From Laetmonice hystrix (Eukaryota), in NCBI GenBank assembly GCA_965235115.1, contig OZ249436.1:8620001-8684000 (forward strand): a stretch of DNA of 64,000 bases, written 5' to 3'. The stretch's first letter is position 1, and every line of letters begins with the position of its first letter. Below are positions 2,864 to 60,640 of the stretch, in pieces. The position numbers and the translations under genes were made by a program. The notes under the pieces are model-generated. The model was given only the letters and a program-made list of their open reading frames with translations. It did not search any database and was not told the DNA's origin.

Positions 2864-3165
2864 TGGAAGGGAGTAGTACTTCATTAATTTTGCCATGATT
2901 GCGGTAAATTGCCCTTGCGACTATAACTGAGGAGAGGCTGGGGTTCGGGGCTGGGGGTTCGGGGGGCACTATAAGCCCCCACGATCATTTTTGATATTGA
3001 AGGCTTTGATACACTTCTTTATAGACACTTTGATGATCATTTTTATTATCTGGAAGAAATATCATGGGAGCAGACTGGTGATTTATTTTGGTGGGGAAGA
3101 CTAAAGTGATATAGTTAGTTGCCTATCCAACCCGTCAATATTAAGAAACGTTTAGGGGACGTGAA

Positions 3166-3450
3166 GTTAGTAATAAAAGCACTCGGAACCTGGCATTGCA
3201 GGGTGCGCTGAAGTTAGTAATAAAAGCACTTGGAACCTGGCATTGCAGGGTTCGCTGAAGTTAGTAATAAAAGCACTCGGAACCTGGCATTGCAGGGTGC
3301 GCTGAAGTTAGTAATAAAAGCACTCGGAACCTGGCATTGCAGGGTGCGCTGAAGTTAGTAATAAAAACACTTGTAACCTGGCATTGCAGGGTGCGCTAAA
3401 GTTAGTAATAAAAGCACTCGGAACTTGGCATTGCAGGGTGCGCTGAAGTT
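3166..3450. repeat. 47-bp tandem repeat, about 6 copies
   Basis: Unit GTTAGTAATAAAAGCACTCGGAACCTGGCATTGCAGGGTGCGCTGAA. Confidence 0.95.
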
Positions 3451-4609
3451 AATCAGATCAAAATAAGACAGTGAGTATAGATACGGTAAAATAATGGCTT
3501 TTATTTCATAGGTAGGTCCTAGTTTCTCTCGTAGGCCTACCCGATAAATCTTCGCAAGCAACGTTTGTGATGGAAACCGTTCAATAAACTGTTTGTGTAA
3601 CCAGATTTATATTGTGGCGATTTTAGGTTTAGGCCTAGACTCTTATATAGGCCGGTGTGTGTGTGTATGGGTGTAGGTGGGTGTGTAGGGGTGTGGGTGG
3701 GTGTGTAGGGGTGTGTGCACAAGGTAGGACTTTATTTCTCAGTAGGCGTACCGGTTTGTTTGTCGTGGTGCATGATCGTTAGAATTTCCCCTCCTACCCG
3801 CATGCGTCAGAGACCTTCCGTGCGTGACGTCGATCTCCGACCACTCCTGGATCATCCAACCCCTTACTTAGCGGCCCGAGCCCAGGGTCTGCAATATCTC
3901 CCGTTTGCGACGACCTATTGAATTGTTGTTCCAGTTCCTACCGTCAGAGGGCTTAATGGCCCTAGCGGTGAAACCGGATACTACGGTTCGCCTTCGGAGC
4001 AGCACCAGCAGCAGCGGCGGAAGTTCCCTTTATCTATAGCCCCTCAATAATTTAATTTTTATGGAAATTAGGGCATACAGGCAATATTAATCATCTGCCA
4101 AGATTATCAAAATGAAAGGGGAAACAGTTGTAGATATACCCTTTTTAATCCCTACATATTATTTTTCAAATCCGTCAAATCCTTGTCAAATACCAGTATT
4201 TTGATGAGAAAAACAAAATCAGCTTCCGATTTTCTTCATATTTTTTATTCACAACATTTCTAAGTTTTATAAGGAACCTCTGGTTTCCTTATAGATAAGC
4301 ACATTAATAAGTATACTATATGAGCAGTATGGGACATTTATTTTCAATTAACATTATGTATAGATCTATATATTATGTATTCATTCTCTGTCAATTAATA
4401 ATGCCTTCGTTAATATTTTTCTCTATTATTAAAGACGTATAAAAATATAAATACCCCCGATTATACTTAAACTAAGTACAATATTCCAGTATATATGCAG
4501 ATTGATTAATCATAAATTATTATGTCTAGGTGAGAATATATCTATCCCAAGTCAGACAAGTTGTCAGTCGCGACCTTTCTGTCTATAGTGACTATGTTCG
4601 ACGAGTAGT

Positions 4610-4806
4610 TCACACGACCTGAGAGAAGCTGGCGACTGCCGCCATGAGAACAGCCACCGATCCTAGAACCATCCCGACACCGTTCTCGACCTGCAAGGGT
4701 CGTAGAAAATGAGAGATGAACCAAAAGATGAAATATAAGCAGAGCCGTAAATTTGAAGGGAATTTGGCCTGAGGCGAGTGCTGAAGGCCCGAGTCGTTCA
4801 TGTGGC

Positions 4807-4837
<31 letters not shown>

Positions 4838-7550
4838 TTAAATGCCATTTACGGCCCTGTATAAGAAAGGGCATGATAAGTGATCGTATTTTCGTATTCC
4901 ACATGTTTTGTTAGGGTAAAGTAAACAAAACTGAACCAAACATGTCCTTCGTTACTATCCACTGTATAGTTCATCGTGACAAGTACTGGGGCCCTGACAC
5001 GTTTCTCTATAACTAGCAAACGTTTAGAAATGTATATACAACGTCATTATTGTCTGAAATAAAGTTTTATCGTCTTCAAACCTATTGTTTTCTTGATTGT
5101 TATGTATATAGGCCTAAAGACGAACTAATAATGAGAGGGAAGCCTACCTATGTTGTGATCTCTCCTACTCCAGTGTTAGTAATAATGAGAGGGAAGCCTA
5201 CCTGTGTTGTGATCTCTCTTACTCCAGTGTTAGTAATAGTGAGAGGGAAGCCTACCTGTGTTGTGATCTCTCCTACTCCAGTGTTAGTAATAATGAGAGG
5301 GAAGCCTACCTGTGTTGTGATCTCTCCTACTCCAGTGTTAGTAATAATGAGAGGGAAGCCTACCTGTGTTGTGATCTCTCCTACTCCAGTGTTAGTAATA
5401 ATGAGAGGGAAGCCTACCTGTGTTGTGATCTCTCCTACTCCAGTGTTAGTAATAATGAGAGGGAAGCCTACCTGTGTTGTGATCTCTCCTACTCCAGTGT
5501 TAGTAATAATGAGAGGGAAGCCTACCTGTGTTGTGATCTCTCCTACTCCAGTGTTAGTAATAATGAGAGGGAAGCCTACCTGTGTTGTGATCTCTCCTAC
5601 TCCAGTGTTAGTAATAATGAGAGGGAAGCCTACCTGTGTTGTGATCTCTCCTACTCCAGTGTTAGTAATAATGAGAGGGAAGCCTACCTGTGTTGTGATC
5701 TCTCCTACTCCAGTGTTAGTAATAATGAGAGGGAAGCCTACCTGTCTCTCCTACTCCAGTGTTAGTAATAATGAGAGGGAAGCCTACCTGTGTTGTGATC
5801 TCTCCTACTCCAGTGTTAGTAATAATGAGAGGGAAGCCTACCTGTCTCTCCTACTCCAGTGTTAGTAATAATGAGAGGGAAGCCTACCTGTGTTGTGATC
5901 TCTCCTACTCCAGTGTTAGTAATAGTGAGAGGGAAGCCTACCTGTGTTGTGATCTCTCCTACTCCAGTGTTAGTAATAATGAGAGGGAAGCCTACCTGTG
6001 TTGTGATCTGTCCTACTCCAGTGTTAGTAATAATGAGAGGGAAGCCTACCTGTGTTGTGATCTGTCCTACTCCAGTGTTAGTAATAATGAGAGGGAAGCC
6101 TACCTGTGTTGTGATCTGTCCTACTCCAGTGTTAGTAATAATGAGAGGGAAGCCTACCTGTGTTGTGATCTGTCCTACTCCAGTGTTAGTAATAATGAGA
6201 GGGAAGCCTACCTGTGTTGTGATCTCTCCTACTCCAGTGTTAGTAATAATGAGAGGGAAGCCTACCTGTGTTGTGATCTGTCCTACTCCAGTGTTAGTAA
6301 TAATGAGAGGGAAGCCTACCTGTGTTGTGATCTCTCCTACTCCAGTGTTAGTAATAATGAGAGGGAAGCCTACCTGTGTTGTGATCTCTCCTACTCCAGT
6401 GTTAGTAATAATGAGAGGGAAGCCTACCTGTGTTGTGATCTCTCCTACTCCAGTGTTAGTAATAATGAGAGGGAAGCCTACCTGTGTTGTGATCTCTCCT
6501 ACTCCAGTGTTAGTAATAATGAGAGGGAAGCCTACCTGTGTTGTGATCTCTCCTACTCCAGTGTTAGTAATAATGAAAGGGAAGCCTACCTGTGTTGTGA
6601 TCTCTCCTACTCCAGTGTAAGTAATAATGAGAGGGAAGCCTACCTGTGTTGTGATCTCTCCTACTCCAGTGTTAGTAATAATGAGAGGGAAGCCTACCTG
6701 TGTTGTGATCTCTCCTACTCCAGTGTTAGTAATAATGAGAGGGAAGCCTACCTGTGTTGTGATCTCTCCTACTCCAGTGTTAGTAATAATGAGAGGGAAG
6801 CCTACCTGTGTTGTGATCTCTCCTACTCCAGTGTTAGTAATAATGAGAGGGAAGCCTACCTGTGTTGTGATCTCTCCTACTCCAGTGTTAGTAATAATGA
6901 GAGGGAAGCCTACCTGTGTTGTGATCTCTCCTACTCCAGTGTTAGTAATAATGAGAGGGAAGCCTACCTGTGTTGTGATCTCTCCTACTCCAGTGTTAGT
7001 AATAATGAGAGGGAAGCCTACCTGTGTTGTGATCTCTCCTACTCCAGTGTTAGTAATAATGAGAGGGAAGCCTACCTGTGTTGTGATCTCTCCTACTCCA
7101 GTGTTAGTAATAATGAGAGGGAAGCCTACCTGTGTTGTGATCTCTCCTACTCCAGTGTTAGTAACGGCGGTGATACTTTCGGTGGTAGATGGCGCAGTGC
7201 TGTTGTCTGTTGTGAAGACTTCTGTAGTGGCAGTGGCAGAATCTGTGGCAGAGCCTGCTGTCGTTGGAGGGGCGCTGGTCGTGGCAGTTTCACATTTAGC
7301 TACAACAAGAAAGTACCGTTAACGGTCTGCATGAGAAGAAAGGTATTACCTTTTAAAGACTATGCGAGGTTTATTTTTGGCTCTGTATAGGTAACTGCCT
7401 TAGAACATTTTCACCGTCAATCAATTAATTTCCCCATACTGTACAGGTTTTCTGCAATCTAAAGATAATTGTACAGTGTTTATTTGTAGAGTAATACTCA
7501 CCAAAGAAGGCAACAATGGCGATGGCGGTGAGGATGGCGATGGTGTTCAT
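4610..7550 (-). CDS. Small secreted Thr/Ser/Ala-rich mucin-like protein, probably GPI-anchored (99 aa, 3 coding exons)
   Basis: Exons 7550-7502, 7299-7130 and 4690-4610 have GT-AG ends and compatible phases (49+170+81=300 nt). Translation: MNTIAILTAIAIVAFFA (signal peptide), KCETATTSAPPTTAGSATDSATATTEVFTTDNSTAPSTTESITAVTNTGVGEITTQ, VENGVGMVLGSVAVLMAAVASFSQVV* (small-residue site followed by a hydrophobic tail). Confidence 0.8.
5126..7164. repeat. 54-bp minisatellite, about 38 copies, built from the exon-2 end and splice donor of the mucin-like gene
   Basis: Unit ATGAGAGGGAAGCCTACCTGTGTTGTGATCTCTCCTACTCCAGTGTTAGTAATA; two 46-bp deletion units near 5745 and 5845. Confidence 0.97.
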
Positions 7551-8270
7551 GATCACGGAGCTAATATCTTACTGCTCTGTAAGTGTAACGACTGTTTGTA
7601 GTTATCTAGACGGTGAAGATCTTTCCGACTTGCACGTGTTAAACCCTGATACACGATGAAGGACAAGGTCGGACCGACCACCTAATATATGCAGCGGGCT
7701 ATAAGTAGTTGCTAAAGTTACCGACAACAGTTAGAAATCCTGTAAAGTCGAAGTGTGAAAACTTAAACACTATTGGCCGATTGCAAGGACGTGTTTAGTC
7801 TCGGGGTTAATCGGCTATTGGGGTTATCTTCGACAACAACGTCACGATTCTCGGGGTTAAACCATTCTGGAGGTTAAGTTAACCCCGCTTGACTAGTAGG
7901 TTTCACCTTTTCTGGTGTTTCCTGGATAGAAAACGGCCCCTCAGATGCCTAGAAAATGCACCTCAGAGAGTCTTGTTTTTCAAAATTTTCAGGGGGAGGA
8001 CGCTCGGATCCCCCATTTGGAGTATCTAAATTTAGTAATCTAAAGGCCTTGAATCCCACAGAAGAAATGTGTCAACTGGTCCAATTTTTTTTACCAAGAG
8101 TAGTAAAACAGACCTTTTCTGGTGTGTTTCCTGCCCCTCAGATGCCTGGAAAATGCAGCTCAGTCTTGTTTTTCAAAATCTTCAGGGGGAGGACTCTCCT
8201 GTACCCGGCTACTTCAGGCTTTAGGCCCTCCTGTACCCTGCTACTCGGAACTTTTACCCTGTATATCTGT

Positions 8271-8784: not shown

Positions 8785-11700
8785 TCAGCAGGTTCCTTCC
8801 CATACACATGATCCATCGCCACGGCCCTGTTCACAGAATTCCGTACCCCCTGGGCAGGAAAACTCGTCCCAATGCCCCCCGGCGACATGGCATCGACAGT
8901 ACCTCTTATTATTACTGCCTGGCTTGGCCCAATGTCCATCCCCGTTGCGCAGACAAACGTCTTTGCAGGCTGCAAGAAAACAAAACTGGACTGAAGAGAA
9001 TATTTAGGCCTACCTGAATCATAGGACGCTCATTACTTAGAGGCCAAGTTATTGCCCTGTCCCCGTTACAGACCCTCGGAACACTGCTTGTCGCCAAATA
9101 CATAATGAGAATTGTGGCGGCCAGCGGCAGTGGTTGGGACGTACATGTGCCTGGCGGCAGGGTGGGCGTGGTCGGTCCGGTCGTGGTCGGGGTGGTCGGG
9201 CCCGTACTGAGTGGTTTCCGGGTGGTGGTCGTACTCGGACCGATCGCAGGACGGCAGTGGGACAGATCAGGTTCTTCGTCACTACAAATACATCACTATC
9301 TTCACGTAAACAGAATGTTACTGAAGAAGAAAATAACTGACGCTTTGCTTTCTACATTCAATTGCCCAAGTCATCGCAGCGAAATATGAATTATATCATA
9401 TGTTTTGGTAATTGGTATGCATGTTTTGGCTAATTTTCAAGTGTTTTTCTTTTTCTTTTCTAACCTAAACTATAGTGCTTTGTTATAGTTATTTAAAAGG
9501 ATATAACTAATGAAATAGCAAGTAACAAAAATGAAAAGGCGTACGAGTTAAGCTGGTCAATCATGCACGTCAACAGCGGATATTTCTTTCCTCCACAAAA
9601 CTGTCCATTGAAGTCGTCCAAATCTAGTGCCCAAATCATTATTCCGAGGAACTCCTGCTCTTTCAACCAGTGCATCTTGATTAACCAAATAATAAGCGTA
9701 AATAGTAAGATAATATATAATCGCTCTCAGGTAGGAAATACAATGTTATATTGTTTCCGAACTCAGGCTTACTGTCATGTCTTCCTGTTTTCCTTTGACT
9801 TCCTTTTTTTTCGCCCGCACTTATTTTCTACTTGAGTACAATTTTGAGTAGGTCACGTTCAGTTAAGAGACTCCTTGGTTTGACCAATGGTGCTCACCTT
9901 ACATAAGCAGCTGTCGATGTCGTCGTAGCCGACCCATTCGGTACGACCGTCGGTGCCCTTACCGAAGGCGTAGGGAACCTCGTGTTCCTTGTGAAACACC
10001 CGGGTAGTCAGCACGTTGTTTGACAACTTCTCACAAATCTGCGTGCAGATCATGAAAATGTTATAGGCCTATAGATCTAGTGTGGACGGTTAAAGGCCTA
10101 TTCAAGCCGGTACACAGTGTGGGGATGGCACTAACAACTCTGCTTGGTCAACTTTCCTGAAAGGTCCATGTCTACAAAATAGCGGGCTCAGGTCGGGGAA
10201 AGGCCGCGACGTCATAAAAATGAGCGATAAAAGATGCTAAAACCTAACCCTATGACGTTACCTCATTATCGCTCATTTAGTGACGTCACGGCCATTCCCC
10301 GGCGACTTGTGCAAAAAAGCGCCCCCCTTGACAGATCTTATCCCTTGAACTCCCAACAAGGTAAACTCCTGCTTACCTCGTAATAAGACCAGAATCCATT
10401 TTCGCCGGTAAATCTGCCTGCGGTCGCGCCGCCATCAATGGATGCACCCATGTTGGTGTTACTCCCAGACATTTTAAAAGAACGCCCATAGGTCGGCATA
10501 CCAATAACAAGCTTATTTCGAGGAACACCATTTCGTACCCAGTAGTTAGCTGCCCAGTCCTGATAAAAAAAACAGAGAAAAAACATTCGAGTATATCTAT
10601 AGGCTGATAGGAAGTTAATATACCAGGAAGCCGGAAAATATCAGGGCCGTGCCGGGCGGGAGGGGGCGAAGGGGCAGCTGTAGCTGCAGGCCCACCGGAA
10701 TCAACTGACACCGTATTACGGTAGTCGAAAAGTACAATTGCGCGCAGCGAGCACTGAGGCAGCGTCGATTTCAGTATAGGACTATAGGCCTACAACTCTT
10801 CTCTTTCCGGACATTCGCAAAGTAGATCTACGCCTGATGCCCGTGCATGCACATGTAAAAAGAAAATCATTGATTACGGAATGATCTGATGACGTACCAC
10901 GTTGAGGTAGCGATGACTGGCCTGTTCGTCGGACCGCGGGTAGAGCGGCGCGTTGTGGGCGGCGTACCAATTCCACGCTCCGTTCAAATCGTACGACATT
11001 AGATTGATAAAGTCCAGAGATCTTGGAACACGGAGAAAACTTGGTTATCCATGTGATAATTAGTATCCTATACCATCATGTTAGGGTAATTTGAAGACGC
11101 CTTAGGCTATGCCATTGGAAATATGTGGTCCACTGGCAATCTAATTAAAATTAGATCTTGGTATTCCGCGTCTCTCTCGGCTGTGTCAGTGCTGCGCATG
11201 CGAAATAACTAAGACCTAATTTTAATTAGATTGGGTCCACTGGCGCATCCGAAGTGAAATGCATGATCGTGCCGGAACTATATCAAAGGTTAAGAATTTT
11301 TCACCCCCAATACTAGCCTGGTCCCCGGTCTAAACACTACGTATACACTACGTATATAGAGCCTGGTGATGGCCAATCAAAGCAAGCGTTGTGATTGGCC
11401 CATCGAAAACATGGACGCAAACGAGGTATAGTTCCGTACCCTCCGTATTTCTCCAACAAGACACAAATATTTTCGTAAATCCCTTTAAAATACAAGTGTT
11501 AAAATTTTAATGTCCTCGCTTTTCTGGATGTAAACATAGCGCCAGCAGTCCCCACACCTGCTACGGTCTGCATACGCAGGGGCATGTTGCTATTGTTGGC
11601 CACTCCTGGCCACGCTCCAAGCAGAAGCCAATCACTCTGTTAACGCTGACAAACGGACCGGAGGCGGAAGTGATTAGCTCCGAGGCGGAAGTGCGTGGAG

Positions 11701-12868
11701 ATCACCACTTCCGTTTTACAGCTTTCTGTTAGCCATCACCGGGCCTAACATCACAGCGGATGCGTATGGTAGGCACCGGGGACCAGGCTACCCCAACACG
11801 TGGTGGTCGTCCCCCCTCCCCCCAGTCTGACTTACTTGCCGATTTTCTCCATTTCGTAAGCTGTGTCGATGGTCCACTTCCCGGCTGCCACTGCGGCTGT
11901 AACTAAGAGTCCTTCCGGTCCAAAGGCGTCTTTGAGTTCCTGGTCGGAATCAGACCATTGAACAGTATGTATAGGGTCTATTGCCATAATATATACATGT
12001 TGCCATCTCCCCATATAGGTCTTTAGGTCTTATTACATTGATAGAAGATATGTATCCAAGCAGGGCAACAAATCGAAATGTCTGAAGAAGTAAATTTCTC
12101 ATGGAGGCACTGCATATAGGTCAAGCCTATCAGTAGTTCTAGGCCTATATAGGCCTACATGTGTAGTGGTGTTTATTTAACAGTCTTTTCCCCCCTTGTT
12201 GAACCTAAATTATGAGCCTCCCTGAACTATGCTGCCCTACCAAGAAATACTACATTATCTGCAAAATTGTGAAATTGAAAAAATCTACCCTAGAGTTTAT
12301 CCCTCAGCCATATAAAAGTATTTAAACGACTTAAGTAGTTATGGTACCATAATATGCCATACTACTTAAGTCGCTCAAATACAGTGCCTCTTGGAAGGGC
12401 AGTATGAGTTCGAACCCATTTAACGGTACCGACTGGTACCGGTGTAGCTTAAATTCAGTACGCCTATGTAGAGACCAACCTGGCAGAGTTTCGTGAAGCG
12501 TTGTTTATCACCGGGCGGACTCCCTCGGTTTCCTGGGTACTCGAAATCCAAATCAAGCCCGTCAAAACCATATTTTCTAAGATAAGTGATAGAGCTCGAT
12601 ACGAATTCCGCCCTGTTCTCATCGGTCGCCAACATTTTGGTCATATTCTCCGTACCAAAATTGTAGCCTCCTACCGCCAACAGAACCTTCAGGGACGGAT
12701 TTATCTTTTTCGTAGCCACTACTTGCACGTACCTTGAAATAAGCAGTATATAAATTTAGTACATGTATCTGCATCATTATGGTATTCATTATTGCTGGCA
12801 TGTGCATTCAATAAAATGTATACCTTTTGGGTCGTATTATTCATGTAAACGCACTTTACGTGTACACA

Positions 12869-12926
<58 letters not shown>

Positions 12927-13886
12927 TGAACCAGTTGAGGCCGATATCAGACGATTGGGCCTTATAAGTTTGGCAGGTTTATACAGACGTTTTTGTTAAT
13001 TTTCATAGACAGAGGATGTCATTGGGATTGACCCAATATTTTGTTAATTTTCATAGACAGAGGACGTCATTGGGATTGACCCAATATTTTGTTAATTTTC
13101 ATAGACAGAGGACGTCATTGGGATTGACCCAATATTTTGTTAATTTTCATAGACAGAGGATGTCATTGGGATTGACCCAATATTCTCCCAATAGTTCTCG
13201 ATGCAACATGCAGTCTCCTCCCCTAATGAGCCCACCTATAGACTCTTCCTGAGGATGAACAACAAATTTAGATGCAAGTGTAGGCCTACATGTCATAATC
13301 GTTGTCCTCGTATGGTGCGAGTTTGTTGCCCTCCATCTTAGCAAAGGAGTAGATGAGATGAGTGCAGAGGTGGGGATCGATACTTTCAGCCGTGTAATTC
13401 ATAGGCGCCGGGCGATACTGGGCCCAGTTGGTGTAATAACAAACAACATAGTACCCTGTCGAACACAGCACCAATGGGATTATTTCAACATAGTACCTAT
13501 ATTTATTATTTTCCAAATCGTATGATTCTATAGAGAAATGATACCAATAAATAGTCGATGTAATTTCAGATGCAAGTTATTGTAGGCCGATACGAGGGGC
13601 GGATCTAGGAATTATTAAAACCTTAAATTTAGCAAGTCAGCTTGTGGCCTACCCCGGGAACATGAATTATTGAAGGTTGCAATGCCAGTATTACTAAAAC
13701 ATTTTGTTCATACACAACCCTCCGAGGTATTTATTGATATTTATTACAAACTCGATTTTATTTTCGGGAGTATAGGGTTATTTATCGATATACCCATTTA
13801 CTATAGATTAAAGATTGGTATTACATACCTTCGCAGGTAGCCAAAGTGACCGTGGCTACGACGAGTAAAAGCAGTCCTCTTTCCAT
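8785..13886 (-). CDS. GH18 chitinase (chitotriosidase/AMCase-like): signal peptide, catalytic domain, Thr/Pro linker and C-terminal CBM14-like domain; about 493 aa, 10 coding exons
   Basis: Exons 13886-13829, 13455-13290, 12732-12480, 11939-11836, 11021-10898, 10559-10377, 10038-9898, 9675-9545, 9281-9145 and 8969-8785 join in frame (1482 nt). Motifs: [29 protein letters not shown], catalytic [57 protein letters not shown] on the minus strand at 8769-8774. Confidence 0.95.
10194..10300. mobile_element. Palindromic MITE remnant in a chitinase intron
   Basis: CGGGGAAAGGCCGCGACGTCA..AATGAGCGATAA pairs with TTATCGCTCATT..TGACGTCACGGCCATTCCCCG. Confidence 0.55.
11137..11233. mobile_element. 97-bp MITE with a 10-bp TSD
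   Basis: TIR CAATCTAATTAAAATTAG / CTAATTTTAATTAGATTG, flanked by the direct repeat GGTCCACTGG at 11127-11136 and 11234-11243. Confidence 0.85.
11314..11790. mobile_element. Non-autonomous DNA transposon with a 9-bp TSD (Mutator-like)
   Basis: TIR TAGCCTGGTCCCCGGT / ACCGGGGACCAGGCTA; TSD CCCCAATAC / CCCCAACAC. A second, inverted partial copy lies at about 16475-16807. Confidence 0.85.
12872..12921. repeat. (CT)n microsatellite
   Basis: About 25 CT units in a chitinase intron. Confidence 0.95.
12990..13184. repeat. 48-bp tandem repeat, about 4 copies, in a chitinase intron
   Basis: Unit TTTTGTTAATTTTCATAGACAGAGGAYGTCATTGGGATTGACCCAATA. Confidence 0.9.
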
Positions 13887-15815
13887 GTTGATGCTGTATA
13901 AAGATACGTAAATTCGGTATTTAATTAAACAATTAAACAAAATAGAGCATCGCCAATTTGCTTAATCCAAAAAGAGGCGAACCCTTACCTCCTACTTTTC
14001 TTTGTTCTCTCTGTCCTCTCTCTGTATGGACCGACAGCTCGGCTGTTCCTCTGACTGCTCGTCATGCGGTTAAATGCAGCCACCGTGTGAATGAACCGAT
14101 GTTCATGTCATGCAGAGTAGAGTCGGAAAAAAATATCCACAATTTCTATACACCTATCTATAGACTAAGTGGTGCACGATCTCTGCACCTGTTATAGGTC
14201 TCACTATTATTCGTGCTTTCCTTAGGCATTGGTACCGTCCCAGCTGGATCAATCCTGCCTCTGTCTTTACTACGAAATGAACATTGTCAAAACAATGTTC
14301 ACTCCAACTTTTAGTAAACAGGCCGCTGGGTTATAGTTGATGGTGGAATATATTCCTATACCGTTTTAATATATCGATTGTATTCCCCGTGTCAACGTAT
14401 AAAATGATAAACAACTAATCAATAAGTACGAATTCATGTTAACTACACAAAGTCAAAATTGTGACTTTTCTTAAAGGGACATGTACACATGGTAAAGAGC
14501 CATGTACACTGGTCCGCATGCATGCCCGGACGTTTTGGGCGTTAAATATCTGCATGTTGTCGGTAACGTGTTTACACGTATAGACAGCACTGGTAACTGA
14601 GTACAAACCAATATGAAAATCGATAACTGTGCGTCCTTTAGTACCCTTGAGACGTCTTCCTGTCGCACCCTTTTAAGATAACAGTCTTATCTGAGTGATC
14701 TTTTGTCGTCTAAACTATACGTTAAATCTCAACCTCGACATCTCATCTTCACTCAGGGCCGAGGACACCGAATGGGCATCATAGCTGCAGTAAGTTCTAG
14801 AAACATTGCATGATATTTGTGATATTTTGCCCTTGGTTTTATACATTCAAGGTCTATATGCCAACTTCCAGGGTTCTCACTATAAATTCCACTGTATTTG
14901 TTTTTCATAATCAAATTCTACATTCTGTTGGGTTGACGGTTGTATATCGCTGTAGGACTTATTCACGTTCACGAAATAGAACCATGCATACAAAGGGCCG
15001 CTTATAGGCCCTGCATCCACAGATATAAAATTGCTCTGTCTCTGATTTTATTTACAGGTCTACAATATGCATATAGCATACGTACGCATATATCTCCATA
15101 TCGTGAGGCGTAGAGGCGCTTGAATTTCACCTAAAAATGGCCAGGGGTCAGATCGAGGTTCTAAGAAACATTTGGTAGGTCTATTTCTTTCAAGGGGATT
15201 GCCTGTCAAAAATTCCGTTCTCCAAAATATATCAGGATTTGCCACCCCCCATAGCTGTAGGCCTATATTTTGGTCAGGAACGGCCCCATCAGACCTTACA
15301 AAATTAATAGGGTCTGTTTATATCTTTGTAATGGCTCGGTTTCGAAATGATATAGAAGACAAATATTAGCTCAATGTCACGTGATTAAGGAGGCGTTTAC
15401 ATAGACAAAAAATAGCATGCCTCTCTGTATTCTTAGTGCATATCGCAATATAACCTCCGAGGCGAGTTTTGTTTGTGGTTTGCACAGTGAACCTAGGCCA
15501 ATACGCCTCTTTTGCTGACCCGTATGGACCCTCCACTGTCATTAATATAAAGGTCGGGTTCCTGTTTGGGCCTACAGATACTGTCGAATGTTGTCCAAGT
15601 GACACATGCACGTCAATCCGCTCTGCTGAGCAATAGGCCTTCAGGATACCCACGTCGGCCTTGGTGACCTCTGTATTAATTTTGTCGGCCTATATACTCG
15701 CCATTTTATCACAGGCCGACCACGTCCAATTTACCAACTAGACTCTAGTAATTTTACGACGCTCTGACAATATTGTGTCGGCAGATTTGGAGTCACAAGT
15801 CTGTCTCCATCGAAA

Positions 15816-18800: not shown

Positions 18801-21800
18801 AGTGAGTTATAACAGACAGACTTTTCTAGATAATGCAGGTTTCGATCCAACGGTCTCAGCACTGGGGCTTGTTTCATGGCGGATCATACCTACCCAAAGT
18901 CAGAGTATCACTCAGGGACCCAGGTAGGTCTCACCTCATGCTATCAACTCTCTTTCCTGGCAAAAGAACAATGTTGATAGGATTGCAATAGCTAGGTTTA
19001 CTCGGCACTTACATTAGGATCTAGTCCAATATTGTTTTATTTCAGCAACTCGGAAAACTCGCAATTGGACGCTATTCGTGGTGAGGACAACAGACGCGCC
19101 TCGTCGGAGACGCCAGTCGTTCGGCAGAGTGCTCCGGGGACCATTGTCAGTGGCGACGTCGTCAGTCAGGCAGCCTCCAATCATAAGCTAAAGCCGGTGG
19201 CTCGGAGCAGACGACGTCGTGATTGCCTACATCTGGACGGGACAAACGATCGCATCCTGTCGAGTGGGTCTCTTGCTGATGCGACTGTCTTGAAAGATTC
19301 GCACGCTCGAAATAAGGCGCGAATCGCGACACAAATGGCGTCAAGCAAAAAACCACTTCATGTTGGTGGTCTGCCCGCTGACAGGAAACGACAAAGGCCG
19401 TCTGATATATCTGGTGTGGCTGCGGAATCGGCGAATGTCAAAGAAGCAGGTGGGAGTGACCCATCCAAGGTCACATCCCGGTCGAGTCTCTTGTCCAAAC
19501 GTCCAAAATCATCTGTTCCACCTACAAAACTGAAGCGGGACACCCAAAACGAAGTTAAACGAAGCGGTTACACAAGATCCACCTCAAGGGAAGTGCATTC
19601 AGCGTATTTAACAGGCAAACAACATCATAATGGAAAAACAGACCAAATGAAAGGTGATGATCATAATGTGCCAGTGAAGGGAGATCCAAAGTCTGACAGC
19701 CAATGTAAAACTCGTCTCATTCATAATTGCCCTTCTAGGCAACGTGAGAAACAAGGAGGGAATGACAGGGTAGGGATGGCCCGCAAGATCCCAAACGCAC
19801 TGGCGTTACCAAGTCAACAGGACGGAAAACTTCCGCCAAATGCTTCAAATTCAGGTAATCCAAATACTCCCCCTACACCTGAGATACCAAAGCTAATGCC
19901 CGAGGGGTGTGCCCCTGATTTCCTAATATCGCAATCTGATTATAATATGATAGAAATGCCCAAACTTGAGCCTGAAGGAAAGATGCCTGTTACAGAAGAA
20001 AGAAAACCCTCTGACCCTCGTTTAAAAAGTAGACGTTTCAGTTGGAAGGAAAGTGATGTGAGCAAAACTATCCATCCTGAATCAAGTACCCTGTCACCAA
20101 AAGAACTCGCCAATGATATCAGCCATGCTAAGAACGGATCTGAAAATGGTCTAGCTGTAAAAAGACCCCTGCCTAATTATGACACACCTAGGCTGGAAAC
20201 TGTAACGAGGAAGAGGTTGTCTTATGATGAATATATAGCTGAGAAAAAGCGCAAGATAGATGACCAAAAGTCTGAGACGGTAGCAACAGGAAATAAGGGT
20301 CACAGTGACACGTCAGGAAATAAGGGTCACAGTGACACGTCAGGAAATAAGGGTCACAGTGACACGTCAGGAAATAAGGGACACAGTGACACGTCAGGAA
20401 ATAAGGGTCACAGTGACACGTCAGGAAATAAGGGTCACAGTGACACGTCAGGAAATAAGGGACACAGTGACACGTCAGGAAATAAGGGTCACAGTGACAC
20501 GTCCGAAGATAATCTTTGCGAGCAAGGTTGTAAGCGTCAAGACCCCACACATACCAAGGAAACCAAGACAATAGTTTCAGCGTTAGAACAGAGTATTGAC
20601 GAACCACACAAAAAAGAGGGAGTGCTACTTCAAGAGAGCATTAACATAGAAGAACGTGTTATTATGACACGAGATGTATGTATTCAGGTTTGTGATGGCC
20701 AAGGTAAAGCTGATAACATGGAACTGGATCGAATGGCATTGAGGCAGTCGATCATGAGCGCCTTGTCTGCTGTCATAACCAGCATAAAAGGAAATATGAC
20801 GGCACTTACCAAGACCACTGCCATTTTAACTTTGGAAAAAATCATTGACGCTGTTGGAAAATCCACCCTTTTTGGAACTGAGAAATTGCCCGGTTTTGAC
20901 CCCGCCGACCAGCATTTCAGCTGTACTGTCCACCAAAGATCTGTTCCCATAGACAAGAAGAGGGTTCAGGCAAGTTTCGTTGGTCACCACCAGGATGAAC
21001 CACACGCAGGTAGAGGATCGACAAGTGCCTTCCCTGCGTTTTATGCGCGCAATGAATTTCAGATGGCGCCGGGGAAAAATGAACCAAAAAACGCTCTAAA
21101 ATTTCGGCTGGTTGGTTATGATCCTTACGGTTGTCCTTTGATATTGCCGGATGAACGGCCTTCTAACATAGATCGAACTGAATGGCCAGGCATATCATCA
21201 GTCCCTGCTTCTAAAGAGACAGAACAAACAAAACCAGCCAAAGAACCCCCTGAACTCACTAAAGAGGCTGCCCATATACAACCATCCGATGCAAATGACA
21301 GCTGCACCCCCCAGGGAAACACGGTTGAAACCCAAACCCCTGACACACCCGGCGGCATGGAAACAGGACCTGAAACCAGGGAGAAAACCACGTTGTCGAC
21401 AGCAACCACCAAAACAGAAGCCACGGAAACGGACCCGGTCAAAGCTGGAGCTGGCGTTAGTGATCAATTAGCTTCGACAGACGTAAAGGATAAAGTAAAA
21501 CCGGATCCAGAACAATCAGATGATACCAAAGATAACAAATGTGTGACTATAACAGAAAAGCGAACCACTGCAATACCCAGGAAATTAACCTTACCTGCCA
21601 ACAGAGAATCGACGGGCCATGCAGACGCATCCTCCGGGCAAAGATCAGAACACGTACTTTTATTATCAGAAGAGGAAAAAGGGCAAGAGGATGTCGTGAA
21701 CCTCGTAAAACGCAGCATGCACACAGACGGCTTGCATGATCGGAGAGTCATCAAGGTAGAACCTTTTACAAGACACGATCTTCAGGTACAGAGGGGACTT

Positions 21801-24800
21801 AGTGTACAAGTGCCACTCTCAAGACAGCAATGGAGACAGAATATTAATTTAAATACTGGATTACGACCAGATCAACAAAGACAAATCAATTTTTATGATG
21901 ACGACGTTAGGAGGACACCAGACTGGGGGCAGCCTCATGGCAACGGTCCACTTTTCGATCGAAGCCATTCTCAACATAATCTAAGAGACTTTGAAAGGAT
22001 GGAAATTGATTATGACTGGATAGACTCAGATGATAATGAAAACGATTATGCCACTTGCATTGGTGACAGACCAACCGAACGAAAAACAGACTGGCTGTCT
22101 CAGAACCACATGGATGAAGATTACGATAGGATTTCGGGTCAACAGCTGGACTATTTATGTGTTTCTGAACATATGACAACAACTGAAGATTGGAAATCGG
22201 ACAAGATCGACGACTGGCAATGTTTTGACAAACAATTGAATCTCATTTATCATCTGTGTGAAAGGTGGGTGGCCGTGCCCAACCTTTCTGAAATTCGAGC
22301 AACTATCAGCGGGAGAAGTGAAGATTTGCAGCAAAAACTCAGCAAATTCGAACAAGCCTTAACACATCACCATGAACGGTCCTGTATCACCATGATTTGG
22401 GACAATAGGACAGTGCTAGTTTCTACTGCTTTAAGAAAACGGCAACAACTGAAGTTGGCTTGTGAGCTTTGTGAGTACTTCAAGTTTGTGTCTGCTTTCC
22501 ACTTAACGAAAAGGAACATAGAACAGCTAGAACAAAGTTCAGGTCTCTTCAAAAATGATAAGCTGGCGTTCTTTCTGCGGGAACTGACAAGGATCTCAAA
22601 CTATCTGGATCTAACACATTCTCGATTTCGAGAATTCGTACACATGGAGAGAACGACAACTTTATTTAAAGGGGCGCCTGCAAACTTACTCTATGATGCC
22701 TACTTCCAATCTGAAAGTCTGGTCAAAGATGTAAGAAATACTATCTTGGAAGCAGAGAAGAAGAAGTCAGGACCTCGTCGAAAGGGAAGGAAGGGTCACA
22801 AGCGGAAAGGTCAAAAACCGCGAGTCCAGCCTTCAGTCTGGACTAACTCCATCACAAATGTATCAGTTGATAATGGTTTCAACGGCACAAGACAGATTCA
22901 AAATACACAACTGAGTCAATCACATGGACCGACTCAGTGTAGAAATAAACATTACAATCAACTAGATCTACACGCTGACCAATGCGGTAGTAGCCGTGAA
23001 CGTCCCTTCTCTGGTCTCCAACAGTTGTCTCTGAGATCCATTTGCGAATCTACCAGCTGCAAAAACACCCAGAAATCAACTGATATACAAAACGAACGCT
23101 GCTCATGGAAAGATGTCAAGACTGAAGACACGCCGCATCACTCGGACCGTTTGAGTCGACGAACGTCTCAGAACAGGGAGGATCTAAATAACGATCCCAA
23201 CTCGGGCGTGGCGGTTCGTGGTGGCACCCATTCGGAGCATTATCGGTCCTCCTCAAGGTCTTCATCTGAAAGTAACAAGGAGAAACCAAAAGGAAGTGAG
23301 ATTAGGAAGCGATCTCCTAGGACAGCAGCCTCCTCTGACAAGAATGAGGCTAGAAAAAAACAAAGAGTGAGCCCTCAGGAGAAGCAGCCGGCTCGCCGGG
23401 ACTGCAACAAAGTGAAACCGGGCATGGGGAAAAGAAAAGATTGTGACGACTCCACGGTGAAGAAGTGTAAGGAACCTGCTGCCACTTCAAAGGATGGTCG
23501 TTTGGGGATAGCGTCCACAAGTCGACCACTTTCATCGTCTCCCTCGTCCATCAAACAGGTTCCATCCAAAGAGAAAGATATGAATACGGCCTCTACAACA
23601 CTGACACATCTGAATGGAGAACATGTGAAAGACGTGGACTCCAGTTGTGCCCGGGGGGAAACGTCCCACGATTCAAGTCATTCTGTTCTGTGTGTGGTAA
23701 AGCAGAAAGAAGTCATGAATTCACTTGAAGACCCTGCATCACCTCCAAATGCGCAAAATGTAAGTATTCCTCTTTATCTAGAGGAAATATTCAATGCATG
23801 TTACCCAGTAATTTGGCCACTTTCAAATTCATTTCTGTTATCTTGCACGGAATAAGCTGGGGGCACGCTTAATTCTCACACCAACCTTACAATCCTCTTT
23901 GTATTAATCAATTTCATTGGAATGTACTGCCAAATTGGTGACGGTATTTCTTAAATATAGTTCTTGAAATCTTGCTCTGAATATCATGTAAACACGAGAC
24001 CCGTTTATTCATAATTTTCCGTGTGTAAACGACTTGTACGTACATTGGATATGATACTGCACTTTCCTCTAGATCTACCAGTGAAACCTTCAGACTCTAT
24101 ATGACCCTGGCTGCTGCTGAGATTTAACCCCCAAATTCCATTCGCAGAAAACAGAGGAAGCCCGTGAAAGCCAGACGGAAAAAATGAAGTCGTTGGTACC
24201 AAATGAACAGAATAGGGAGTCACTATATGCAGGCTCACTTAATAGCGAGTCGACTGAGAAAAGCAGACAATGCACGTATAGTGATCCTAGTATGCAAGAC
24301 AGATCGTCGAGCATCGAACCGATAGAAGAAAACGAAAAGAACAAGCCGGTCGGCAAGTCCCAAAACGATAACACAAAAGGTGACAAAGCGGATGACTCAA
24401 ACGCAAAGCCACAACTGAAGTTACAGTGCGATGGCATAATTGTAGGCCCCTCACGAAGGGCCACACCGCCATACAACCAAGAGACCAACAGGGCTGCAAA
24501 CGTTGACTGTATTTATCCTGGAAACGACAAGACTACGCTCCCACTTCTCGTACACAAAGATTACCTGCAAATAAGTGATTCCGATGAGGAAGTGACAACT
24601 GTAACACGGAACAGTGAGAAGGTTGATCAGTCTGCTGTCAAGGAACAAAGTAAAATCACCAAAGAAACATCTCGCGTCGCTAACTCTCCACAGGCGGCGA
24701 ATTTAAAATCCGGTACAGCACAACAGCAAAATGCGGTATCGACCAAAGTTGATATGTTTGCCTTTGAGGAATCTACTCCTCGACCTACACGTTCATCACC

Positions 24801-27246
24801 GGTAACCAGGAATGTGGGAAAGTTAGTGGTCAGCCGACAACCGACCTTTTACCCACGACCTGTTCCTGCACCGTCCACCGCTATCGGGCGTAAAACCAGA
24901 GGGTGGATGTCTCTCACAAGATCGAGCTCCGTGAGACCAAGAAATAACATCTTTGATGATTGGAATCAAGTATGATTCTGTGGGACAGTCCTCCTGTCCG
25001 ATCCTCGCTCAATTCTTTGATGATTGTAATCAAGTATGATTCTGTGGGGCAGTCCTCCTGTCCGATCCTCGCTCAATTCTTTGATGATTGTAATCAAGTA
25101 TGATTCTGTGGGGCAGTCCTCCTGTCCGACCCTAGCTCAGTTCTTTGATGATTGTAATCAAGTATAATTCTGTGGGGCAGTCCTCCTGTCCGATCCTCGC
25201 TCAATTCTTTGATGATTGTAATCAAGTATGATTCTGTGGGGCAGTATTTGTGTTTTAGAATAAACTCTCACGCCGTTCAAATATAATTCTGTTTGATTAC
25301 AAAAAGCGGGTCTAGTTTTAATATCGTGCGAGAGGCTTCTTCCATGCTTTAAAGCCGGTGTCGCATTTCGTTCCGATGCTCCGACCGCCCGACATCGGAG
25401 ACATATCGGACCAAATATCGGGCCGTGAGAGCAGAAGGTCGTGTAGTGTGATGACATTTACGTGCGATGGTTGCAACAATATGGGAGGGTCGGTGAGTCC
25501 GATAAAAGTCTGACACTGTCAGACCGATCATCATCCAGCAGTCGGAGGTAGGCCTAAATCGGGGGTTGTAGGGTAGTGTGAGCATGACGTCGTACCGTGT
25601 GAGCGTCATATCGGACTAAAATCGGAGTCGGGATTGGGCTCTCGGAACTGACAGCCAATCAAAACGTCAGAAATATCATGTAAACTCAATTTACCTCCGA
25701 TCCTCGGAAGGCTGCGTGGTCGGAGGATCGGAATAAGATCGCAACAACTGGAGCCCCGATTTACCTACGATTGTCGGAAGCTCGGGCAGTCGGAGCATCG
25801 GAACGAAATATTGTGCCGTGTGACAGAAATTCCGGTGTGAAAGGAATATGGGAATGGAATTCTGCCGCCCCCTATAGGTATGCAGGCCCCAGGTCGTCCA
25901 CTTCGTGGTAAACAATATGACAATAGCCCGTCGGAGTCACAGCCCCCAACTGGGTAGGGACTAATTATCTGTGGGTTCAGGAACTAGTACTAATACAAAT
26001 ACGTTGGGATAAGGATGATAAAGATATATTGATATAACACAACATTAAGGACTTCAAGCCCTAGGGATGCAGACACATGTATTTCGGGGATTGCATTGCA
26101 TTCCAATGGGACATACAAATCTGTTACACCCGACCCATTTTAGGGTTGGTTATACAAATTAAAGGGGCATATTATGAGGAAACGTGCAAAATCTGTATTT
26201 CAAAGAACTTTTGCCGTTTTCATAAAGAGATCTTTCATTAAAATTGTTTGGTAAACAAAGACAGACTTAGTTTCATTTTGCGTGAGAAATCGAAGTTTAT
26301 GAAGCTCCCTTGCCCGCTTCTCTGCCGATTTCGTAAAATATTTTTGGGTGGCATTCTGATGCCAGACGATCGAGTGCAACTGCTGAATTGTTTACAACTA
26401 AGCGAAGCACGTGACTAAGCACATGCAGAGAGTGCACACGCAGGATGTGACGCAGTATGCAATTACACGGGTTGATGGGAGGTTGTCTATACCAAATTAT
26501 GGTGGGAGATGTGCTATCGGGAGAAATCTATAGGTTTGGTCGTATAGAACCTACTTGTGCTGCATACGCAGCGAAAACACGTCGGAGGACAAAATGCTTT
26601 GGTAGGATTATTTACTTGGATCCCTATTACACGGTCATGTTGGATAATTGCCGGAAATCCCCCAAAACGTTTTCCATAGGATGCCCCTTTAAACAACAAA
26701 ACCAAGACGACAGATTTTTTGTGTTTGTTTTTATCAAAGCATTGCGAATTTATTTGCCCCAACATAACATACCTAAAAGATTTCCTAGAATGAAACGATT
26801 CCAAGCACTCTTTTTAATTCAGTAGCACATAATGTACTATAATCTGTACTCAAGTCAAATTTAGCCGGAGGCCCTAAATGGTACCATGGCACATAAATAC
26901 ATCAGGAAAAAGTGCCTTATGACTTTATAATATGTAAATATGGACACATAATCATGTTTCCCACACATCCCTGTATCAGCAGTTTGGATAAATGTATAAT
27001 ACGCCTATAGAAGAGTAATAGTTCAATAATAGTTTCTAATATTTCCTTCCATGGTAATATTTGGATTTCTCAATACACCATGAGAATGAGTTTGCAAACT
27101 TCTAACAGTAATGATCGCTCATTCACAACTCATTTTGTTCAATGTTACGCACTGATTCCCTTTTTGAACACAATGCTGTAATCATGTTTGATGTTCGCTG
27201 GCCCTATACCATGTACCTGTATCTCCGACAGTTTATACCAGACTAA
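15816..27246 (+). CDS. Large protein (about 2000 aa), probably nuclear: N-terminal SPOC-like domain resembling TASOR/FAM208, followed by a mostly disordered region encoded by a 4.7-kb exon
   Basis: Phase-compatible exons: 15816-15925 (acceptor at 15785), 16097-16206, 18244-18344, 18564-18654, 18830-18923, 19046-23759, 24148-24969 and a tentative last exon 27232-27246 (FIPD*). The N-terminus reads MKTSSAQTIAWEGCLEYRKQPLASIIAKTGIPLKGHLPTDLQVHQKINFEKFAEQVLPSSL...YQICCLEPKEKVTKWQRFTDFLQRDHSVGVASI...CLFIVP...ALGLVSW. The start codon and the last two exons are less certain. Confidence 0.7.
16475..16807. mobile_element. Truncated inverted copy of the 11314-11790 element
   Basis: Reverse-complement match over about 330 nt (e.g. 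CAGACCGTAGCAGGTGTGGG, GCTATGTTTACATCCAGAAAAGCGAGGACATT), ending in CCAGGCTA. Confidence 0.8.
17329..17500. mobile_element. Palindromic MITE bounded by TTAA
   Basis: TTAAGCTGCGTGTCCACAGGTCCG ... CGGACCTGTGGACACGCAGCTTAA with arms of about 65 nt. Confidence 0.85.
17583..17848. mobile_element. Palindromic MITE with internal subrepeats
   Basis: TTCGTTTCAGAGAAACAT ... ATGTTTTCTCTGAAACGAA, with internal TGACGTCACTAAGTCGTTATTACGA subrepeats. Confidence 0.75.
19046..23759 (+). CDS. Giant internal coding exon (4714 nt) of the SPOC-like gene
   Basis: Largely non-repetitive 1607-aa ORF in the track. Acceptor TTTATTTCAG| before 19046 and donor AAT|GTAAGT after 23759. Basic NLS-like runs (KKKSGPRRKGRKGHKRKG) and a predicted helical block at about 22150-22760. 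Confidence 0.9.
20287..20503 (+). repeat. 27-bp coding tandem repeat (TSGNKGHSD, about 8 copies)
   Basis: Unit CAGGAAATAAGGGWCACAGTGACACGT inside the giant exon. Confidence 0.95.
24950..25245. repeat. 64-bp tandem repeat, about 4.5 copies, spanning the exon end and donor of the SPOC-like gene
   Basis: TCTTTGATGATTG(G/T)AATCAA|GTATGATTCTGTGGG recurs every 64 nt. Confidence 0.92.
25350..25823. mobile_element. MITE-like element (Harbinger-like ends)
   Basis: ATTTCGTTCCGATGCTCCGAC near 25365 pairs with GTCGGAGCATCGGAACGAAAT near 25788-25809; CCGA/TCGG-rich interior. Confidence 0.7.

Positions 27247-35524: not shown

Positions 35525-60640
<25,116 letters not shown>

What the first reader, a model, noticed from the sequence alone, without database searches (positions are those of the whole stretch)
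4610..7550. Tiny GPI-type mucin gene with a ladder of in-frame splice donors that could tune protein length
The 54-bp unit is the last 37 nt of exon 2 plus CAG|GTAGGC and 17 intronic nt. On the coding strand it is stop-free and a multiple of 3 (VGFPLIITNTGVGEITTQ). Twenty-four near-identical donors from 7130 down to 5888 are in frame with exon 3, so donor choice could give 99 aa up to 99+23x18 aa, all keeping the signal peptide and anchor. Beyond the 46-bp unit near 5845 the frame is lost. Either the spliceosome picks one donor among about 38, or a length-variable surface protein family comes from one locus.
Basis: partly seen in the sequence, partly recalled or inferred. Interest (0 to 1): 0.75.

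Follow-up and report, generated by a model that had tools for sequence, protein, structure and literature searches.

The report
Repeated splice donors in mucin-like gene
A 54-base piece covering the end of an exon and its splice signal has been copied about 38 times in a small cell-surface protein gene of an invertebrate; this kind of repeat is already known, another copy of the gene lacks it, and most likely only the first splice signal is really used.

Summary
The anatomy is real: a 3-exon, 99-aa signal-peptide/Ser-Thr-rich/hydrophobic-tail gene on the minus strand, with 38 GTAGGC donors, the first 24 in frame. The unit is 35 exon + 19 intron nt, not 37 + 17. The functional-ladder reading is not supported. 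(1) About a quarter of donor-spanning duplications are in frame and stop-free by chance (6686 of 27552). (2) GFAT in the same window has an 11-donor, 49-bp ladder whose extra donors bring a stop (3 of 3 tried). (3) Three DNA runs from one sample hold a contig of this exon that leaves the array 22 nt after donor 1, so a copy without the ladder exists (allele or paralogue unresolved). (4) The array shows no sign of coding selection. It matches amphioxus 'mirage' minisatellites and human F7/IFI6/CBS VNTRs, where only the first one to three donors are used. The scan noted the same arrangement before, in this genome (LIG1) and others (unchecked notes). No RNA could be tested, so donor use is inferred. 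Ordinary; one natural experiment remains (array versus array-less copy).

The parts
7502..7550 (-). Exon 1 coding part (49 nt): ATG and hydrophobic signal-peptide-like segment; donor G|GTGAGT
   Evidence: hydropathy; no differences listed in this exon in 3 of 3 DNA runs
7300..7501 (-). Intron 1, 202 nt, GT..AG
   Evidence: a 4-nt insertion at 7390 in run X1 falls here
7130..7299 (-). Exon 2 (170 nt), Ser/Thr-rich stalk; ends at donor 1 (CAG|GTAGGC)
   Evidence: the array-less copy keeps the frame (6-nt insertion; 3 synonymous and 4 conservative codon changes among 8 listed differences)
5126..7164 (-). 54-bp minisatellite, 38.1 copies; unit = 19 intron nt + last 35 exon-2 nt; TTA microhomology at both ends; 38 donors
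5888..7130 (-). Donors 1-24, in frame with exon 3 (99-513 aa if used)
5842..5887 (-). First 46-nt unit (8-nt deletion); frame lost from here
5742..5787 (-). Second 46-nt unit with the same deletion
5148..5842 (-). Donors 25-38: out of frame or behind a stop; donor 38 is TAG|GTAGGC
4691..5125 (-). Unique part of intron 2 with pyrimidine-rich acceptor
4610..4690 (-). Exon 3 coding part (81 nt): small residues, then a hydrophobic tail and the stop (GPI-signal-like)
   Evidence: GPI attachment inferred, no predictor available
4244..4342 (-). Two AATAAA hexamers (starting 4342 and 4249), candidate poly(A) signals

Best explanation
A young, tolerated minisatellite of the 'mirage' / donor-reiterating VNTR type in intron 2 of a small secreted, probably GPI-anchored Ser/Thr-rich protein gene. 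Step 1 (shown in sequence): a 54-nt segment spanning the exon-2 donor and bounded by a TTA microhomology was duplicated head to tail. Step 2 (inferred from near-identical units and clustered shared variants): slippage or unequal exchange expanded it to 37 units. Step 3 (inferred from precedent, exon size and the GFAT control; not shown): the spliceosome pairs the 7299 acceptor with the first donor, 7130, so the 99-aa protein dominates and the other 37 donors are silent or used in traces. The in-frame unit is a coincidence that makes any leak harmless; it is not a selected length-tuning device.
For: Shared exon suffix 35 nt, shared intron prefix 22 nt, TTA overlap. In 3 of 3 DNA runs (one sample) a contig at depth 33/66/47 aligns from 7248 or 7296 down to 7108, exactly donor + 22 nt, then carries about 246 letters that do not fit the array: a copy with a single donor. 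In frame and stop-free by chance in 6686 of 27552 simulated duplications at 16 GFAT donors. Internal control: GFAT splices to one open frame through the first donor at 41492, while use of donors 2, 3 or 4 of its 49-bp, 11-donor ladder gives a stop. Of 3 donor-spanning arrays seen in the window (54, 49, 64 bp), 1 is a multiple of 3. Two 8-nt deletions and a stop variant are tolerated; 0 of 6 distinct substitutions are synonymous. Donor 3 onward would make exon 2 longer (278 nt or more) than any of 16 internal GFAT exons (39-257 nt). Precedent: F7, LMNB2 and PDGF use only the first donor; IFI6 and CBS use two more (PMC1557585); amphioxus mirages do not disturb splicing (PMC3087553).
Against: Donor use was not observed; the mechanism is borrowed from mammals and amphioxus. 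All donors are identical and strong (9.9 bits, equal to the best of 17 GFAT donors scored leave-one-out), and folding does not favour donor 1 (unpaired probability 0.27 against about 0.36). GFAT's extra donors could be hidden by nonsense-mediated decay, which would not act on this in-frame ladder. Large exons or ORFs do occur in the window (284 and 1619 codons). 0 of 6 synonymous has P = 0.16 under neutrality, so it is only an absence of signal. The letters of the 246-nt overhang were not shown, and allele versus paralogue is unresolved.
Confidence: 0.72

Rival explanations
1. Leaky but unselected use: donor 1 dominates, while donors 2-3 give an appreciable share (over 10%) of 117- and 135-aa isoforms, as reported for IFI6 and CBS.
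For: IFI6 and CBS each use two pseudo-sites besides the authentic one (as summarised in PMC1557585). Donor 2 gives a 224-nt exon, within the GFAT range. Each copy carries 35 nt of the true exonic context, against 4 nt in F7, and the products are in frame.
Against: F7, LMNB2 and PDGF use the first donor only, and in F7 even in-frame pseudo-sites stay unused.
Confidence: 0.15
2. One reading: many of the 24 in-frame donors are used, giving a family of anchored proteins in 18-aa steps that is maintained by selection.
For: 24 consecutive in-frame, stop-free donors, all keeping the signal peptide and tail. The host gene is a surface-type protein for which length could matter. Variable repeats at exon-intron boundaries can be kept or spliced out in young human genes (PMC2812944).
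Against: Chance level 24-30%; array-less copy; frame-breaking deletions; no synonymous bias; the repeat peptide is hydrophobic rather than mucin-like; exon 2 would reach 1412 nt.
Confidence: 0.04
3. The array disables this copy: donors nearest the exon-3 acceptor are chosen, or exon 2 is skipped, giving out-of-frame, decay-prone transcripts, and the array-less copy supplies the protein.
For: Donors 25-38 are out of frame or behind a stop. Reporters with competing 5' splice sites produce intron-proximal as well as distal products (PMC1877881 passages). An array-less copy exists that could compensate.
Against: The same rule would destroy the intact GFAT frame in this window. Exons 1-3 of the array-bearing copy are undamaged.
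Confidence: 0.04
4. The host gene is mis-modelled or not transcribed, so the 'donors' are only look-alikes in a non-coding minisatellite.
For: No family or homologue supports the model: no Pfam family above its curated cut-off; low-complexity exon.
Against: Three exons join in phase through GT..AG introns into signal peptide + stalk + hydrophobic tail. The second copy keeps the frame (6-nt insertion; 4 of 8 listed differences at third codon positions), while a 4-nt insertion falls in intron 1.
Confidence: 0.05

Closest known systems
Amphioxus 'mirage' minisatellites (Adh3, globins BflGb6 and BflGb9); PMC3087553, passages read
   Same: Head-to-tail duplications of an exon-intron boundary in an invertebrate; units of 10-160 bp; donor or acceptor side; unit number differs between haplotypes; reported not to interfere with splicing.
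   Different: Here 37 units, more than the 3 and 6 reported for BflGb6, with 24 donors in frame; the host is a small surface-type protein; the organism looks protostome by GFAT hits.
Human F7 intron 7 37-bp VNTR; PMC1557585, abstract, introduction and discussion read
   Same: First unit spans the exon-intron junction; identical donors reiterated in the intron; polymorphic.
   Different: F7 unit has 4 exon nt and 5-9 copies; this one has 35 exon nt, 38 donors and a unit divisible by 3. First-donor use is shown for F7 and only inferred here.
Human IFI6 (6-16) intron 2 and CBS intron 13 minisatellites; seen only as summarised in PMC1557585; the IFI6 paper was not held
   Same: Long donor ladders (25 and 15-20 pseudo-sites) of which the nearest two extra donors are used. 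That the IFI6 variants are in frame is recalled, from no call.
   Different: Human genes with transcript data; use beyond the third donor is not reported there.
Coding-VNTR mucins (MUC1 type; recalled, not tested by a call)
   Same: Repeat-linked length variation of a Ser/Thr-rich surface protein.
   Different: Mucin repeats lie wholly inside an exon and are Ser/Thr/Pro-rich; here the repeat is intronic under donor 1, half intron-derived and hydrophobic.

Membership tests
Mirage / donor-reiterating minisatellite | First unit spans an exon-intron boundary and reiterates the splice site | tested here: met
   35 exon nt + 19 intron nt, 38 donors; the boundary rests on a gene model without RNA
Mirage / donor-reiterating minisatellite | Head-to-tail units of about 10-160 bp, homogenised within the array | tested here: met
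   54 bp, 97% matches; 25 of 37 units identical to the consensus
Mirage / donor-reiterating minisatellite | Unit number varies between haplotypes | tested here: inconclusive
   An array-less copy is present in 3 of 3 runs of one sample; allele versus close paralogue not resolved
Mirage / donor-reiterating minisatellite | Normal splicing at the authentic site is kept | not testable with these tools
   The three runs laid are genomic DNA
GPI-anchored mucin-like protein | N-terminal hydrophobic signal segment, Ser/Thr-rich stalk, C-terminal hydrophobic tail with no cytosolic part | tested here: met
   Hydropathy peaks 2.9 and 2.8 at the two ends; 25 of 56 stalk residues Ser/Thr
GPI-anchored mucin-like protein | Predicted or shown omega site, GPI attachment and O-glycosylation | not testable with these tools
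   No SignalP or NetGPI on hand
GPI-anchored mucin-like protein | Homology to a named family | tested here: inconclusive
   No Pfam family above its cut-off for exon 2, exon 2 + 4 units or exon 3; 0 of 7 candidates pass; 3 hits that are unrelated repeat proteins; weak searches on a short low-complexity piece
Coding-VNTR mucin (MUC1 type) | Repeats inside one exon, Ser/Thr/Pro-rich, frame kept through the whole array | tested here: not met
   Unit 4 of 18 Ser/Thr, hydropathy +0.69; read-through stops at 510 aa before exon 3
Splicing-based diversity generators (Dscam, protocadherin type; recalled) | Arrays of diverged, frame-preserving alternative exons under purifying selection | tested here: not met
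   Near-identical units, no working acceptor context (33% pyrimidine before the internal AG against 67-72% at the real acceptors), 0 of 6 synonymous changes, frame breaks

The most novel reading that the evidence does not exclude
Because each unit carries 35 nt of true exonic context, an equally strong donor and an open frame, the array-bearing copy yields a graded, decay-resistant series of anchored proteins in 18-aa steps (well beyond the two extra donors known from IFI6 and CBS), while the array-less copy yields one length. A young repeat would then have created an allele-specific protein-length dial in one step.
Probability: 0.07. Interest if true: 0.6.

Novelty: new member of a known kind. 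Interest (0 to 1): 0.17.

Why it matters
Most likely it matters little: one more splice-junction minisatellite in a genome that has many. Its modest value is as a test case. The donors are in frame, so decay cannot hide their use, and an array-less copy exists in the same sample. Long-read RNA from one animal could therefore measure how an invertebrate spliceosome chooses among 24 identical, harmless donors, something tested by mutation in a human gene (F7) in the papers read. If a real ladder appeared, it would be a simple way to make a length-graded surface protein.

Tried and rejected
No whole genome is held, so no genome-wide count of paralogues or ladders. No RNA holder listed: no evidence either way. 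The three runs laid on 7066-8000 were genomic (flat cover over intron 1, no joint across it). In runs X2 and X3 no window-like contig was shown over 7162-7257; a hole proves nothing there. Protein searches: exon 2 + one unit, 0 of 7 candidates at E <= 0.1; exon 2 against 1.84 billion representatives gave 3 hits, all repeat proteins with 4-5 short stretches and no resemblance in architecture, rejected; Pfam, only a sub-cutoff YvrJ match. The + strand frame of the unit is also open, and 5 of 6 substitutions would be silent in it (worked out by hand). I rejected a + strand gene: the frame is the in-register antisense of a Thr/Ala-rich exon, it is broken by the same 46-nt units, and I saw no exon structure; the pattern remains a small oddity. 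Each unit formally has GT, a TACTAAC branch-like motif and a terminal AG; use as a 54-nt intron was rejected because there is no pyrimidine tract and the shortest of 16 GFAT introns is 170 nt. Enrichment of arrays on splice sites in GFAT: 2 of 5, P about 0.06, not significant. RNA folding does not single out donor 1. Papers looked into without a bearing passage: PMC10078293, PMC12783039, PMC13196383 and bioRxiv 10.1101/2020.12.16.423078 (passages). Nine literature searches listed no paper describing a long, used in-frame donor ladder; the library lacks most subscription journals, I opened only some of the listed papers, and no supplements were read.

Full report
OBSERVATION. On the minus strand there is a compact three-exon model: ATG at 7550, exon 1 7550-7502 (49 nt), a 202-nt GT..AG intron, exon 2 7299-7130 (170 nt), and exon 3 from 4690 to the stop at 4610. 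It gives 99 aa with hydrophobic ends and a stalk that is 25 of 56 Ser/Thr. From 7130 to 5148 lie 38 GTAGGC donors, separated by 35 units of 54 nt and 2 of 46 nt; TRF reports 38.1 copies at 97% matches. Donors 1-24 are in frame and give 99-513 aa; donor 25 shifts exon 3; donors 26-38 lie behind a stop.

CONTEXT. The window is from an invertebrate animal. A GFAT exon is 88-90% identical to named annelid, mollusc and centipede proteins; I did not resolve the clade further. Upstream lies a GH18 chitinase-like gene. The window is rich in private minisatellites (35 TRF rows).

IS THE IN-FRAME LADDER MORE THAN CHANCE? No. I simulated every donor-spanning unit of 30-70 nt at 16 of the 17 GFAT donors (the one with its own array left out): 6686 of 27552 (24%) were a multiple of three and stop-free, and 1014 of 3344 (30%) for units shaped like this one. 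Most of the unit is exon sequence and so already stop-free. Of three donor-spanning arrays seen in the window (54, 49 and 64 bp), one is in frame. Within the array, two 8-nt deletions and a CAG-to-TAG change are tolerated, and none of 6 distinct substitutions is synonymous; with 27% expected this has P = 0.16, so it shows no purifying selection but does not prove its absence. The repeat peptide is hydrophobic (+0.69) and only 4 of 18 Ser/Thr, unlike the stalk it would extend.

INTERNAL CONTROL. GFAT (minus strand, 60650-35528, mapped with two homologues) splices to one open frame of about 690 codons. The exon ending at 41492 is followed by a 49-bp array with 11 GTGAGC copies; using donors 2, 3 or 4 (the three tried) brings a stop. 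GFAT exon 2 also has a three-fold acceptor repeat (57218, 57162, 57100). An intact housekeeping gene therefore lives with the same architecture, which implies that productive splicing uses the first donor (inference; decay could hide leak there, and GFAT paralogues could not be checked).

A COPY WITHOUT THE LADDER. No run on record as RNA was listed. The three listed runs, one sample, proved genomic: flat depth over intron 1 and no joint across it. In 3 of 3 runs, a contig of 393-441 letters at depth 33, 66 and 47 aligns over exon 2 down to 7108 and then carries about 246 letters that do not fit the array. Position 7108 is donor + 22 nt, the point where array and unique intron part. The contig has its own letters inside the repeated segment (7142, 7160) and single-copy depth, so it is not a collapsed array. 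It has 10 other letters and a 6-nt in-frame insertion; the 8 listed differences give 3 silent codons and V>T, S>T, T>A and I>M. This supports the exon-2 frame and shows that a one-donor version exists. The array is also in the sample (unit depth 1105-1216, 18-33 times the single-copy contigs). Limits: the overhang letters were not among the loose ends shown, so their identity with the intron below 5126 is inferred; allele versus close paralogue is open; the depth ratios are below the 37 units of the window, clearly so in two runs; the sample may be the one the window was assembled from, so it is not independent support for the array's spread.

HOW IT MOST LIKELY WORKS. Shown: a 54-nt segment across the donor, bounded by TTA, is repeated head to tail. 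Inferred: slippage or unequal exchange expanded it recently (25 of 37 units identical; one variant shared by units 16 and 18-21, the same deletion in units 24 and 26). Inferred: donor 1 dominates. Donor 1 gives a 170-nt exon and donor 2 a 224-nt exon; donor 3 onward exceeds all 16 internal GFAT exons (39-257 nt). Against this, the donors are identical and strong (9.9 bits, the top of the GFAT range) and folding does not favour the first, each copy has 35 nt of exonic context, and in-frame products would escape decay. Some use of donors 2-3 is therefore plausible (0.15); a long selected ladder is unlikely (0.04).

WHAT IS KNOWN. Borensztajn et al. 2006 (PMC1557585; abstract, introduction, discussion and passages read) describe minisatellites whose first unit spans the donor: F7, LMNB2 and PDGF use only the authentic site, IFI6 (25 pseudo-sites) and CBS (15-20 repeats) use two more, and in F7 even in-frame pseudo-sites stay silent. 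The amphioxus globin paper (PMC3087553; passages read) describes 'mirages', tandem duplications of exon-intron boundaries that vary between haplotypes and seem not to disturb splicing. De Grassi and Ciccarelli 2009 (PMC2812944; first part and passages) report that repeats at exon-intron boundaries of young human paralogues can be kept or spliced out. Yeo et al. 2007 (PMC1877881; passages) show both proximal and distal products in competing-donor reporters. The IFI6 paper itself was not held. Nine searches listed no account of a long, used ladder; the library is incomplete and no supplements were read. Earlier scan notes, unchecked except where I read the paper they named, report the same arrangement in this genome (LIG1, 22 donors, first used; several EGF-gene junctions) and in others (NADK, CUL2, enolase).

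VERDICT. Observation confirmed. It works like, and meets the two sequence criteria of, a mirage or donor-reiterating minisatellite; copy-number polymorphism is likely but unresolved, and splicing could not be tested. The host is a plausible GPI-type Ser/Thr-rich protein with no family found. New member of a known kind; interest 0.17. What remains of value is the natural comparison of an in-frame 24-donor copy with a one-donor copy in one animal.

Noticed in passing
window 40966-41505 (minus strand, GFAT): 49-bp minisatellite reiterating the donor at 41492 (11 GTGAGC copies); not a multiple of 3 and with an in-frame stop.
   Followed up: yes
window 57077-57252 (minus strand, GFAT exon 2): 56/62-bp repeat reiterating the splice acceptor three times (57218, 57162, 57100).
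   Followed up: partly
window 39092-38922 and 38426-38265 (minus strand, GFAT): Two homologous phase-0 exons for the same part of the second SIS domain; either alone completes the frame. Probably mutually exclusive exons; the Ridgeia model P0019 contains both.
   Followed up: partly
window 24950-25245 (plus strand): 64-bp array reiterating a likely donor (CAA|GTATGA at 24970, five copies) at the end of the ORF 24121-24975; the gene model is unverified.
   Followed up: partly
window 18996-23855 (plus strand): 1619-codon open frame with no Pfam family above cut-off and an internal in-frame 27-bp repeat of 8 copies (20287-20503).
   Followed up: no
window 42414-42660 (minus strand, GFAT): 18-bp array that ends about 10 nt before the acceptor at 42403, where a pyrimidine tract would normally be.
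   Followed up: no
window about 9000-14000 (minus strand): GH18 chitinase-like gene with signal peptide, Thr/Pro-rich linker and Cys-rich C-terminal part, directly upstream of the small gene; GFAT lies in the same window, so two amino-sugar/chitin-related genes are neighbours.
   Followed up: no
window 5126-7164, plus-strand frame: 5 of the 6 distinct substitutions in the array fall at one codon position and would be silent in the in-register antisense frame; probably chance (worked out by hand).
   Followed up: partly
window 3162-3451 (minus strand): 47-bp array of 6 copies, each with a TACTAAC motif followed by TTCAG, like a repeated branch point and acceptor; no exon assigned.
   Followed up: no
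window 7770-8200: Upstream sequence is a dispersed repeat: depth up to about 2000 with many loose ends over 7770-8000 in 3 of 3 DNA runs.
   Followed up: no
window 29866-34623: 4.8-kb G-rich 44-bp satellite of 109 copies whose minus strand is open in all three frames.
   Followed up: no
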